Assembly: GCF_003018115.1 (NCBI RefSeq)
Contig: NZ_CP027457.1
From: Escherichia coli
GTDB taxonomy: Bacteria > Pseudomonadota > Gammaproteobacteria > Enterobacterales > Enterobacteriaceae
Reading direction: 5' to 3' (one strand)
Length of the DNA stretch: 64,000 nucleotides
Shown piece after piece: positions 54,901 to 57,900 of this stretch. The position numbers are program-made. The first letter of the stretch is position 1. Each line of letters starts with the position of its first letter.

Positions 54901-57900
54901 AACCCGCCAGTTCGAAGATTTTCGGCGCGTAATACATGATGACGTTCATCCCGGTGAATTGCTGCATTACCTGTAACAGTACGCCAAGGAACACCGCGCG
55001 GCGGAAGTTGCTATTCTCTTTAAACAGCGCCCAGCCACTCTGTTTAACCTGCAAACTTTCACGGATTTCATCCAGTTCACGTTTCGCTTCCGCGCTGGTG
55101 TCACGCAGGCGTAGCAGCACGCGTTCGGCATCAACAAAACGGCGTTTGGCGGCAAACCAACGTGGGCTGTCTGGCAGGAAGAAGACACCAATCAGCAGCA
55201 AAATTGCCGGGATGATAATCACACCCAGCATCCAGCGCCATGCACCGGTGTAGCTGAAGGCGGTATCAGAAAGATAAGCACCGAGGATCCCGATAGTGAT
55301 CATCAACTGATACATCGAGATCATACTGCCGCGAATTTTTTCCGGCGCAATTTCAGAGAGGTACAGTGGTGCGGTATAAGAGGCCACACCCACCGCCAGC
55401 CCCAGCAGAACGCGGGAAAGAATCAGTACTTCAACGTTTGGCGCAGCCGCAGAGAACAGCGAACCGGCAACAAACAAAATCGCGCCGATCATCAGGCTCT
55501 TTTTGCGCCCGAGTTTAAAGGAGAGCCAGCCGCTGCCCACCGCACCGACTGCCGCACCGAACATCATGGAGCTTACGACCCATTCTTGCGTGTGCGAAGT
55601 AATCTGGAATTCATCTGCAATAAACGGCAGTGCGCCAGCAATTACACCGATATCCAGGCCAAAGAGTAATCCCGCCAGAGCGGCAAGGAAGCAGACGAAA
55701 AACGTCATTGCCTTGTTTGACCGCCCCTGTTTTTTAGCGTCAGGCATGATGCCCTCCAATATGGTTATTTTTTATTGTGAATTAAGATAGGTGAGTACGA
55801 CGTAAAAAGATGTGAAGCAAATCACATCAGTGTAATCGCTTACACTAACATTTATCTTAGTTATGATTTAAGTGCATGAAAATAATTGAGTTATATCATC
55901 ATAGATTAAACGCTGTTATCTGCAATTAAGACTTTACTGAAAAGAAATGTAACAACTGTGAAAACCGAATAATAATATGAAAATATTACAAATCTTTGTC
56001 TGTTGTGGTTGGTGTAATCGGTTTCAGTTGTGATGATAATTTGCGGTGAAACGTGATCAGGAAGAATGATGTTATTGTGCAGGCGGTTTTTTTGCCGGAT
56101 GCGGCGTGAACGCCTATCCACCGCGGTGAGGTAAAAGAAAAAGGCCAGCGCGAGGCTGGCCTTTGAAAGCAGGTGAAGAAAGATTACTTCAGACCGGCAG
56201 CATCGCGCAGCAGCTGCGCTTTGTCGGTTTTTTCCCACGGGAAATGTTCACGACCAAAGTGACCGTATGCTGCGGTTTCTTTGTAGATCGGGTGCAGCAG
56301 ATCCAGCATCTGAATCAGACCGTATGGGCGCAGGTCGAAGAACTCACGTACCAGCAGAGTCAGTTGTTCAGAAGGCACTTTCTCAGTACCGAAAGTTTCT
56401 ACCATGATGGAGGTCGGTTCAGCCACGCCGATTGCGTAGGAAACCTGAATTTCACAACGATCGGCCAGGCCAGCAGCAACGATGTTTTTCGCGACATAAC
56501 GTGCTGCGTAGGCTGCGGAACGGTCCACTTTTGATGGATCTTTACCAGAGAATGCTCCGCCACCGTGACGTGCCATGCCGCCGTAGGTATCAACGATAAT
56601 TTTACGACCAGTCAGACCGCAGTCACCCATCGGGCCACCGATAACAAAACGACCGGTCGGGTTGATGAAGAATTTGGTGGCAGAAGTCAGCCATTCAGCG
56701 GGCAGAATCGGCTTGATGATCTCTTCCATTACCGCTTCTTGCAGCGATTTCTGGTCGATCTCTTCAGAGTGCTGAGTGGAAAGCACGACAGCATCGATAC
56801 CAACGATTTTGCCGTCGTCATACTGGAAAGTCACCTGGCTTTTCGCGTCCGGGCGCAGCCACGGCAGAGTGCCGTTTTTACGCACTTCAGCCTGACGCTG
56901 TACCAGACGGTGTGCATAGGTGATAGGTGCTGGCATCAGCACGTCGGTTTCATTAGTTGCGTAGCCAAACATCAGACCCTGGTCACCCGCGCCCTGTTCC
57001 AGCGGATCGGCACGGTCAACGCCCTGGTTGATGTCAGGAGACTGTTTGCCGATAGCGCTCAGAACCGCACAGGAGTTAGCGTCAAAGCCCATGTCGGAAT
57101 GCACATAGCCAATTTCGCGAACGGTGTTACGGGTGATCTCTTCGATGTCTACCCAGGCGCTGGTGGTGATTTCGCCGCCAACTAAAACCATGCCGGTTTT
57201 TACGTAGGTTTCGCAAGCAACGCGTGCTTTCGGATCCTGTTCGAGGATCGCGTCTAAAACGGCATCAGAGATTTGGTCAGCAATTTTGTCAGGATGCCCT
57301 TCAGAGACGGACTCGGACGTAAAAAGGTGTTTTGCCATATTTAATATCACCTAAAGAGAATTTGGTTAGCTCAAACTGTTGTGTGGATTTTCTGTGGTAG
57401 CGGATCCTACCACGACTCTGCAGGTTAAAAACACTGGCAGTCTGAGTGTTAATCGGTATGGATGGATTAACATCTGGATGGCTATTTTAGGTCAATTCTT
57501 CACCCGATTTCCACTTTTTTTTGAATCGTGTCTCATTCTGTTAAAAACGTGGCTGGAAATTTTTCCTGACAATGCCGGCATTCTGCGTATTTATCTTTTG
57601 CAATTTTCTGCCATTGTGGGGTATAAAACGCGGCGCGCGGCTTAAATAAAAAGCACACGGCGTTTCTTTCGTGTTGCCACTTCCAGCCGGGTTGAAATCA
57701 GAGTTTTGGCTTGTGGGTTCGTCTTAACAGGCGGCCGTGGAGGTGATACGAAATAATGAACCGTTGTCTGCTGCTTAACCTGTCTCACCGTTCTGGTGAA
57801 GATTCGTTCCCCGCACTCTGCATCTCTGCTTTGCATACCTGCCGATGTTATACCCATCTCGGCGCTTCTCAGGATTCAAGAGCTGGTTACAGTTACTGAG

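What the first reader, a model, noticed from the sequence alone, without database searches (positions are those of the whole stretch)
55830..56027. Pair of GalR/GalS-type operators upstream of galP
A perfect 16-bp operator palindrome (GTGTAATCGCTTACAC) lies about 85 bp upstream of the galP start, and a two-mismatch second copy lies about 180 bp further upstream. The arrangement resembles the looped two-operator control of the gal operon. galP regulation by GalR/GalS is established; the existence and role of the second site here is my inference.
Basis: partly seen in the sequence, partly recalled or inferred. Interest (0 to 1): 0.25.

Follow-up and report, generated by a model that had tools for sequence, protein, structure and literature searches.

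The report
Known GalR/GalS operator pair of galP
The two sites are the already catalogued GalR/GalS repressor-binding operators in front of the E. coli galactose transporter gene galP, so the finding is correct but ordinary.

Summary
Both sites exist where stated, in the metK-galP intergenic region of an E. coli chromosome. From the distal site to the galP ATG the sequence is 100% identical to K-12 MG1655.

Two details were wrong. Site 1 (55830-55845, GTGTAATCGCTTACAC) is not a perfect palindrome: one of its eight base pairs is asymmetric. Site 2 (56012-56027) differs from it at 3 of 16 positions (2 of 15).

Both are published operators. Qian et al. 2016 (PMC5110547) list "OI(galP)" GTGTAATCGCTTACAC and "OE(galP)" CTGAAACCGATTACAC, the reverse complement of site 2, 182 bp apart. 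So the second site is not a new inference.

A weight matrix built from non-galP GalR sites ranks them 1 and 2 of about 64,000 window positions. In 70 of 75 two-operator galP loci the spacing is 181-185 bp, although the DNA between them has diverged.

The proximal operator lies 19 bp from a perfect CRP core, as at galE P1. Published work says GalR blocks CRP activation there. Looping with the distal site is plausible but unshown, and the geometry differs from galETK because both operators lie upstream of the promoter.

One unexplained extra is a conserved block midway between the operators.

Novelty: already known. Interest: low.

The parts
55830..55845 (.). Proximal GalR/GalS operator, called 'OI(galP)' in the literature. 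+ strand GTGTAATCGCTTACAC; gene orientation GTGTAAGCGATTACAC. Its centre at 55837.5 is 90.5 bp upstream of the ATG and about -60.5 from the inferred transcription start.
   Evidence: Exact match. 0 mismatches to GTGNAANCGNTTNCAC. Weight-matrix rank 1. Same sequence as K-12 OI(galP), which carries the strongest GalR ChIP-chip peak in the genome, 115.4. Mean 1.85 bits per column across 74 Enterobacteriaceae sequences.
56012..56027 (.). Distal GalR/GalS operator, called 'OE(galP)' in the literature. + strand GTGTAATCGGTTTCAG; gene orientation CTGAAACCGATTACAC. Its centre at 56019.5 is 182 bp from the proximal centre and about -242.5 from the inferred start.
   Evidence: rank 2, 16.4 bits. Listed with this exact sequence in Qian 2016 Table 1, scoring 14.8 bits in their scan. 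Across 74 sequences it is invariant at the specified consensus positions 2, 3, 6, 8, 9, 11, 12, 14 (and at N position 13), near-invariant at 5 and 15, and variable at 1, 4, 7, 10, 16.
55811..55826 (.). CRP (cAMP receptor protein) site core TGTGAAGCAAATCACA. Its centre at 55818.5 is 19 bp from the proximal operator centre and about -41.5 from the inferred start.
   Evidence: The only perfect TGTGA-N6-TCACA in the window, against 0.04 expected. Conserved across genera. PgalP is reported to be inactive without cAMP-CRP.
55764..55786 (-). NagC operator CTTAATTCACAATAAAAAATAAC, overlapping the -10 element and the inferred transcription start.
   Evidence: Exact match to the galP NagC site printed in the FITBAR paper, PMC3098098. 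galP is reported to have a single NagC site giving about 5-fold regulation.
55784..55789 (-). Inferred -10 hexamer TATCTT. The inferred transcription start lies at about 55776-55778.
   Evidence: Inference from the distance to the CRP site (class II geometry) and from cross-genus conservation. The consensus scan did not call it, as expected for an activator-dependent promoter. No mapped start site could be retrieved.
55925..55954 (-). Conserved block of unknown function midway between the operators. Gene orientation TGTTACATTTCTTTTCAGTAAAGTCTTAATTG; genus-wide consensus TGTTACAT-N4-TTTCAG-N5/6-TCTkAAt.
   Evidence: 1.13 bits per column against 0.22-0.45 in the neighbouring spacers. Consensus. 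Fixed distance to both operators. Not a GalR weight-matrix hit.
54353..55747 (-). galP coding sequence (galactose:H+ symporter), the regulated gene.
   Evidence: RefSeq annotation of identical E. coli DNA and alignment to K-12.
56140..56164 (-). metK intrinsic terminator (10-bp stem followed by a T run). It marks the upstream limit of the galP control region.
   Evidence: I2.

Best explanation
These are the two known GalR/GalS operators of the E. coli galP control region.

Shown or published: galP is transcribed from a promoter that depends on CRP. Without galactose, a GalR (or GalS) dimer on the proximal operator blocks CRP-mediated activation. That operator sits 19 bp upstream of the CRP site centre, the same CRP/operator geometry as galE P1. 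Galactose releases the repressor, so the promoter computes 'cAMP AND galactose'. NagC bound over the -10/start region adds a second layer of repression.

Inferred: the distal operator, 182 bp further upstream, is an auxiliary operator. A second GalR dimer bound there interacts with the proximal one, through GalR-GalR contact with the AT-rich DNA between them bent or looped. Something bound at the conserved mid-block may contribute. This raises occupancy and tightens repression. Because both operators lie upstream of the promoter, the geometry is closer to araO2-I1 or lac O3-O1 auxiliary looping than to the promoter-enclosing galETK repressosome.

Confidence by step: about 0.97 that these are the GalR/GalS operators; about 0.85 that the proximal site works by blocking CRP activation; about 0.5 that the distal site cooperates locally by looping.
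For: Identity: the sequences and their 182-bp spacing are identical to the K-12 OE/OI(galP) operators listed by Qian et al. 2016. The window is 100% identical to K-12 from the distal operator to the ATG.

Binding and regulation: galP carries the strongest GalR ChIP-chip peak, and galP is up-regulated in a galR deletion. Deleting galR, galS or nagC improves growth on galactose.

[quoted passage not shown] The perfect CRP core is at 55811-55826.

Function of the distal site:
- Across 74 Enterobacteriaceae upstream regions it averages 1.58 bits per column, against 0.16-0.22 in the DNA on either side. Variation falls on the consensus N positions 4, 7 and 10 and on the end positions 1 and 16.
- Within E. 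coli, SNPs cluster beside the site but spare it.

Coupling of the two sites:
- Centre-to-centre spacing is 181-185 bp in 70 of 75 loci. In the same loci the distance from the metK stop codon to the distal operator ranges from 68 to 614 bp.
- One Escherichia lineage has a 10-bp deletion, one helical turn, giving a spacing of 172.
- The spacer is 26% GC against 52% for the window.
- GalR dimers are known to bridge operators.
Against: No paper I could read shows a loop, or any phenotype of the distal operator, at galP. The one study most likely to have tested it (El Qaidi et al. 2009, Mol Microbiol 71:146) is not in the held library.

A construct with only part of the galP region already gives AND logic, so the distal site is not needed for the basic response.

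The ChIP-chip motif call lists one site at galP, not two; its resolution cannot separate 182 bp.

182-183 bp is about 17.4 turns at 10.5 bp per turn. That is not an integral number, and the phase differs from the 113 bp of galE.

The transcription start is inferred, not retrieved. The conserved spacing could instead reflect constraints from the conserved mid-block.
Confidence: 0.6

Rival explanations
1. The distal operator works alone as a roadblock or insulator. GalR bound about 110-130 bp downstream of the metK stop codon stops read-through from the strongly expressed metK gene into galP when galactose is absent. No contact with the proximal operator is needed.
For: metK and galP are co-directional. 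The distal operator lies between the metK terminator (56140-56164) and the galP promoter. It is conserved. Repressor roadblocks are known for LacI-family proteins (lac O3, abstract of PMC3711431).
Against: A roadblock needs no fixed distance to the proximal operator, yet the spacing is held at 181-185 bp in 70 of 75 loci while the distance to metK varies from 68 to 614 bp. The metK terminator is strong, with a 10-bp stem including 6 GC pairs plus a T run. The proximal operator would itself block read-through.
Confidence: 0.12
2. The distal operator serves mainly the long-range GalR network ('mega-loops' between distant operators that organise the chromosome) and contributes little to local galP control.
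For: OE(galP) appears in the table of operators identified by chromosome conformation capture (3C). GalR is proposed to link scattered operators and to form higher-order assemblies.
Against: A role in chromosome architecture does not predict a rigid 182-bp distance to the proximal operator and to the mid-block across genera. The two roles are not mutually exclusive.
Confidence: 0.1
3. The distal site is a chance or decaying match with no function.
For: It departs from the consensus at one end position. It scores lower than the proximal site in Qian's information scan, 14.8 against 25.1 bits. It was not called as a second site in the ChIP-chip motif table.
Against: It ranks 2 of 63,987 positions with an independent matrix. 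It is invariant at the contact positions in 74 sequences from many genera while its flanks are saturated with change.
Confidence: 0.02

Closest known systems
E. coli K-12 galP operators OE(galP) and OI(galP) (Weickert & Adhya 1993, as cited by Qian et al. 2016, PMC5110547)
   Same: Identical sequences, identical 182-bp spacing and identical position relative to galP. The window equals K-12 over the whole control region.
   Different: Nothing in the operators themselves. The window's strain differs from K-12 only further upstream, by a 13-bp indel and 3 SNPs between metK and the distal operator.
galETKM OE-OI repressosome (GalR tetramer plus HU loop)
   Same: Same repressors and the same 16-bp operator type. 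Same CRP-to-upstream-operator distance of 19 bp (CRP -41.5, operator -60.5). Two operators per promoter region.
   Different: At galE the second operator is inside the gene (+53.5) and the 113-bp loop encloses both promoters, with HU at its apex. At galP both operators are upstream, 182 bp apart, and the promoter lies outside any loop. galP needs CRP and also uses NagC. HU dependence at galP is unknown.
araBAD O2-I1 loop and the lac O3-O1 auxiliary operator (comparison from my own knowledge, not tested here)
   Same: A promoter-proximal site near -60 or at the promoter is paired with an upstream auxiliary site roughly 90-210 bp away that increases repression by looping. A CRP site is part of the region.
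   Different: The proteins differ (AraC, LacI). At galP the CRP site lies outside the putative loop, on its promoter side. Looping is not demonstrated.

Membership tests
GalR/GalS (LacI-family) operator | 16-bp hyphenated dyad GTGNAANC.GNTTNCAC with a central CG | tested here: met
   Site 1 has 0 mismatches and site 2 has 1 (position 16). They are the only such matches in 64 kb.
GalR/GalS (LacI-family) operator | Genetically critical positions 3, 5, 9, 15 intact (G, A, G, A; Qian 2016 citing Adhya & Miller 1979) | tested here: met
   Both sites have G3, A5, G9 and A15. Across 74 orthologous regions these columns are invariant or nearly so.
GalR/GalS (LacI-family) operator | Scores like independently established GalR sites | tested here: met
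   17.3 and 16.4 bits, against a training range of 12.1-19.8 bits; the matrix excluded galP.
GalR/GalS (LacI-family) operator | Bound by GalR in vivo or in vitro | not testable with these tools
   Literature only. The ChIP-chip peak at galP (115.4) is the strongest in the genome, but the motif call names only the proximal site. The distal site is listed among the 3C-identified and 'previously known functional' operators.
galETK-type repressosome (promoter-enclosing GalR/HU loop) | The two operators flank the promoter(s) | tested here: not met
   Both operators lie upstream of the CRP site, the -10 element and the NagC site. This rests on an inferred transcription start, not a mapped one.
galETK-type repressosome (promoter-enclosing GalR/HU loop) | Operator spacing of about 113 bp in the phase required for HU-assisted looping | tested here: not met
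   Spacing is 182 bp, and 181-185 bp in 70 of 75 related loci.
galETK-type repressosome (promoter-enclosing GalR/HU loop) | HU binding at the loop apex; dependence on supercoiling and GalR tetramerisation | not testable with these tools
   A conserved block lies near the operator midpoint, but what binds it is unknown.
Class II CRP-dependent promoter repressed by anti-activation | CRP site centred near -41.5, with the repressor site next to it | tested here: inconclusive
   A perfect CRP core lies 19 bp from the operator centre and about 41.5 bp from the start implied by the conserved TATCTT. CRP dependence and GalR anti-activation are published. The mapped start site could not be retrieved.

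The most novel reading that the evidence does not exclude
The galP upstream region is a rigid three-part repression architecture conserved across Enterobacteriaceae. It consists of the distal operator, a conserved block about 65 bp downstream of it (TGTTACAT-N4-TTTCAG-N5/6-TCTkAAt), and the proximal operator about 117 bp further on. In this reading the block binds an as yet unassigned protein, or sets a DNA bend, at the apex of a GalR-GalR loop that works together with NagC. That would be a second kind of gal 'repressosome' whose loop lies wholly upstream of the promoter.
Probability: 0.25. Interest if true: 0.35.

Novelty: already known. Interest (0 to 1): 0.1.

Why it matters
As submitted, the finding adds nothing to what is known. 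Both operators of galP are catalogued for E. coli K-12, and the window's control region is identical to K-12.

The modest value from this check is comparative. The distal operator, whose role is scarcely documented in the papers I could read, is under clear purifying selection. It is held at a fixed distance from the proximal operator across dozens of genera, and there is an unassigned conserved block between them. That makes a simple question testable: does galP use an upstream GalR loop, and what sits in the middle of it?

galP derepression is also a recurrent route to glucose uptake in engineered and evolved PTS-minus strains, so knowing which cis elements matter has some practical use.

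Tried and rejected
- **Primary papers not held.** I tried El Qaidi et al. 2009, Geanacopoulos & Adhya 1997, Krishna et al. 2009 and Qian et al. 2012. Any promoter-deletion or footprint data on the distal operator therefore remain unseen.
- **Mapped galP start site not found.** The supplements of Kim et al. 2012 (PMC3415461) returned only an orthologue table. The start site used here is inferred.
- **Generic sigma-70 scan.** It finds no promoter on the galP strand. This is not taken as evidence against the promoter, because CRP-dependent promoters match the consensus poorly. It does flag the CRP palindrome plus T run (55809-55828) as 'terminator-like', which I regard as an artefact of the palindrome.
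- **Conserved mid-block.** It is not a GalR site (weight matrix below 4 bits). By eye it is not CRP-, NagC-, IHF- or MetJ-like and is a poor -35/-10 pair; these judgements are mine, not formal tests. A search for the same words near other gal-regulon operators found only TTTCCGTAACACTGAAA next to galR OE. That site overlaps the likely galR promoter and may be chance.
- **Helical-phase argument from the five spacing outliers** (121, 130, 157, 172, 174 bp). There are too few cases to be meaningful.
- **Chance match for the distal site.** Rejected on the conservation pattern.

Full report
**Where we are**

The window around the finding is E. coli chromosome. A 701-bp query matches 5,425 of 5,426 complete E. 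coli genomes and overlaps genes annotated galP and metK. galP lies on the minus strand with its ATG at 55747. metK, also on the minus strand, ends near 56184, so the finding sits in the 436-bp metK-galP intergenic region. Aligned to K-12 MG1655, the window is identical from the distal site through the galP start codon. The only differences are a 13-bp indel and three SNPs nearer to metK. K-12 experiments therefore apply directly.

**The observation**

- GTGTAATCGCTTACAC is at 55830-55845 and GTGTAATCGGTTTCAG is at 56012-56027. The start-to-start spacing is 182 bp. The near edge of site 1 is 83 bp from the ATG. The stated coordinates and distances are right.
- Two details are wrong. Site 1 is not a perfect palindrome, since one of its eight symmetric pairs is broken. 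Site 2 differs from site 1 at three of 16 positions, or two of the first 15.
- Some other E. coli strains do carry the perfect palindrome GTGTAATCGATTACAC at this place.
- Against the published consensus GTGNAANCGNTTNCAC, the sites have 0 and 1 mismatches. They are the only hits at <=1 mismatch in 64 kb, against 0.25 expected.
- I built a symmetrised 14-bp weight matrix from the 18 GalR sites inferred by ChIP-chip in Qian et al. 2016, leaving galP out. The two sites score 17.3 and 16.4 bits, ranks 1 and 2 of 63,987 positions. The next best is 13.5 bits, and 0.06 hits per shuffled window reach the site 2 score.

**What is already known**

- Qian et al. 2016 (Front Mol Biosci 3:74, PMC5110547), Table 1, lists OE(galP) CTGAAACCGATTACAC at 3088004-3088019 and OI(galP) GTGTAATCGCTTACAC at 3088186-3088201. 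The first is the reverse complement of site 2 and the second is site 1. The spacing is 182 bp and the distance to the K-12 galP ATG (3088284) is the same as here.
- The same paper counts both among nine 'previously known functional' operators of the gal regulon, citing Weickert and Adhya 1993. Its information scan gives them 14.8 and 25.1 bits. It finds the strongest GalR ChIP-chip peak of the genome at galP (115.4) and reports galP up-regulated in a galR deletion.
- The 'second site' is therefore not a new inference.
- One reservation: the ChIP-chip motif table names only the proximal site at galP. Array resolution cannot separate sites 182 bp apart.

**The rest of the control region**

- The only perfect CRP core in the window, TGTGAAGCAAATCACA, is at 55811-55826 (0.04 expected). 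Its centre is 19 bp from the proximal operator centre, the same offset as CRP (-41.5) and OE (-60.5) at galE P1.
- A conserved TATCTT at 55789-55784 fits a -10 element. It puts the transcription start near 55776-55778, the CRP site near -41.5, and the operators near -60.5 and -242.5. This is an inference, since I could not retrieve a mapped start.
- The NagC operator CTTAATTCACAATAAAAAATAAC, printed for galP in PMC3098098, matches exactly at 55764-55786 over the -10/start region. galP is described as having a single NagC site giving about five-fold regulation.
- The Semsey laboratory states that PgalP is inactive without cAMP-CRP and that GalR binding inhibits CRP-mediated activation. This gives AND logic, even with a construct holding only part of the region.
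- GalS shapes the cAMP response of galP. Loss of galR, galS or nagC improves growth on galactose.

**Comparative test of the distal site**

A scan of one genome per species with the GalP protein returned 80 loci from many enterobacterial genera.

- Seventy-five loci have two high-scoring GalR sites upstream of galP.
- Centre-to-centre spacing is 181-185 bp in 70 of the 75; the exceptions are 121, 130, 157, 172 and 174.
- The proximal centre is 90-96 bp from the ATG in 73 loci.
- In the same loci the distance from the metK stop codon to the distal operator ranges from 68 to 614 bp.

In an alignment of 74 distinct upstream regions, mean information per column is as follows:

| Region | Bits per column |
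|---|---|
| Proximal operator | 1.85 |
| Distal operator | 1.58 |
| CRP core | 1.24 |
| -10/NagC region | 1.20 |
| DNA flanking the distal operator | 0.16-0.22 |
| Promoter-side spacer | 0.45 |

Within the distal operator, the specified consensus positions 2, 3, 6, 8, 9, 11, 12 and 14 (and N position 13) are invariant, and positions 5 and 15 nearly so. Variation falls on positions 1, 4, 7, 10 and 16: the consensus N positions 4, 7 and 10, plus the two end positions, which the consensus specifies as G and C. This is close to the pattern expected from selection for GalR/GalS binding.

Within E. coli, SNPs crowd both sides of the distal operator but leave it intact. Megablast recovers the 64-bp distal segment in only 1,941 genomes, against 5,421 for the proximal one.

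**Mechanism**

- The proximal operator acts by blocking CRP activation. This is published and consistent with the geometry.
- For the distal operator I infer an auxiliary role through contact with the proximal complex. The grounds are its conservation, the fixed spacing despite a diverged spacer, the AT-rich spacer (26% GC against 52% for the window), a natural 10-bp (one-turn) deletion in one Escherichia lineage, and the known ability of GalR dimers to bridge operators.
- I put this at about 0.5. No accessible paper shows it. The partial promoter already gives AND logic. And 182-183 bp is about 17.4 helical turns, which is not integral.
- The analogy with galETK is only partial. There the 113-bp loop encloses the promoters and needs HU. 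Here both operators are upstream, which is closer in layout to araO2-I1 or lac O3-O1 (my own knowledge, not tested).
- Rivals are a roadblock against metK read-through, a role only in long-range GalR 'mega-loops', and a non-functional match. The first two do not predict the fixed spacing. The third is excluded by the conservation.

**An unexplained extra**

- Midway between the operators, at 55925-55954, is a block conserved at 1.13 bits per column. Its consensus is TGTTACAT-N4-TTTCAG-N5/6-TCTkAAt, which in most genera forms an inverted repeat TTTCAG-N6-CTGAAA.
- It keeps a fixed distance to both operators, 64-67 bp and 116-118 bp.
- Its inverted repeat is centred about 5 bp from the operator midpoint (55928.5).
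- It is not a GalR site by the matrix. By eye it is not CRP-, NagC- or IHF-like and not a convincing promoter.
- It may be a site for a further protein or a structural element of a repression complex. I found nothing on it in the library.

**Verdict**

The feature is already known, so interest is low. The only open points are the actual role of the distal operator and the identity of the mid-block.

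Noticed in passing
window 55925-55954 (minus strand): A conserved block lies midway between the two GalR operators: TGTTACATTTCTTTTCAGTAAAGTCTTAATTG, genus-wide consensus TGTTACAT-N4-TTTCAG-N5/6-TCTkAAt, often an inverted repeat TTTCAG-N6-CTGAAA. It scores 1.13 bits per column against 0.22-0.45 in the flanking spacers and keeps a fixed distance to both operators. No known site could be assigned.
   Followed up: partly
L003 (Escherichia sp. MOD1-EC7003), upstream of galP: A 10-bp deletion removes GTTGTTACAT from the mid-block and shortens the operator spacing from 182 to 172 bp, one helical turn.
   Followed up: partly
L002 (E. coli SCPM-O-B-8794) and other loci, proximal operator: Some E. 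coli and other genera carry GTGTAATCGATTACAC, a truly perfect 16-bp palindrome, where the window and K-12 have GTGTAAGCGATTACAC. The most common form across genera is GTGTAACCGATTACAC.
   Followed up: partly
window 55988-56051 versus 55806-55869: Within E. coli, the DNA flanking the distal operator is much more polymorphic than the proximal/CRP segment. Megablast finds the distal segment in 1,941 genomes and the proximal segment in 5,421. The 16-bp operator itself is unchanged in the strains inspected.
   Followed up: partly
window 56064-56133: A REP-like element (GCCGGATGCGGCGTGAACGCCTATCC) lies between the metK terminator and the distal operator. Next to it the window carries 13 extra bases (56121-56133, TACCTCACCGCGG in gene orientation) that K-12 lacks.
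   Followed up: no
window 55809-55828 (minus strand): The CRP-site palindrome followed by TTTTT is flagged as terminator-like (7-bp stem, 3 GC pairs). This is probably an artefact of the palindrome, although it sits just upstream of the galP start.
   Followed up: no
L052, L053, L062 (Silvania, Leclercia) and L051, L061 (Enterobacter sp.): These loci have different layouts. Three show a single GalR-type site about 130 bp from the ATG. Two show operators 121-130 bp apart with the proximal one about 70 bp from the ATG, while retaining the TCTGAAA part of the mid-block.
   Followed up: no
L088 251-267 (K-12, upstream of galR): TTTCCGTAACACTGAAA contains the words TTTCAG and TGTTAC of the galP mid-block on its reverse strand. 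It lies 3 bp from the galR OE operator. It overlaps the likely galR promoter and may be chance.
   Followed up: partly
window 55876-55884 and 55977-55985: An exact 9-bp direct repeat, ATGAAAATA, occurs 101 bp apart inside the AT-rich spacer. It is probably chance.
   Followed up: no
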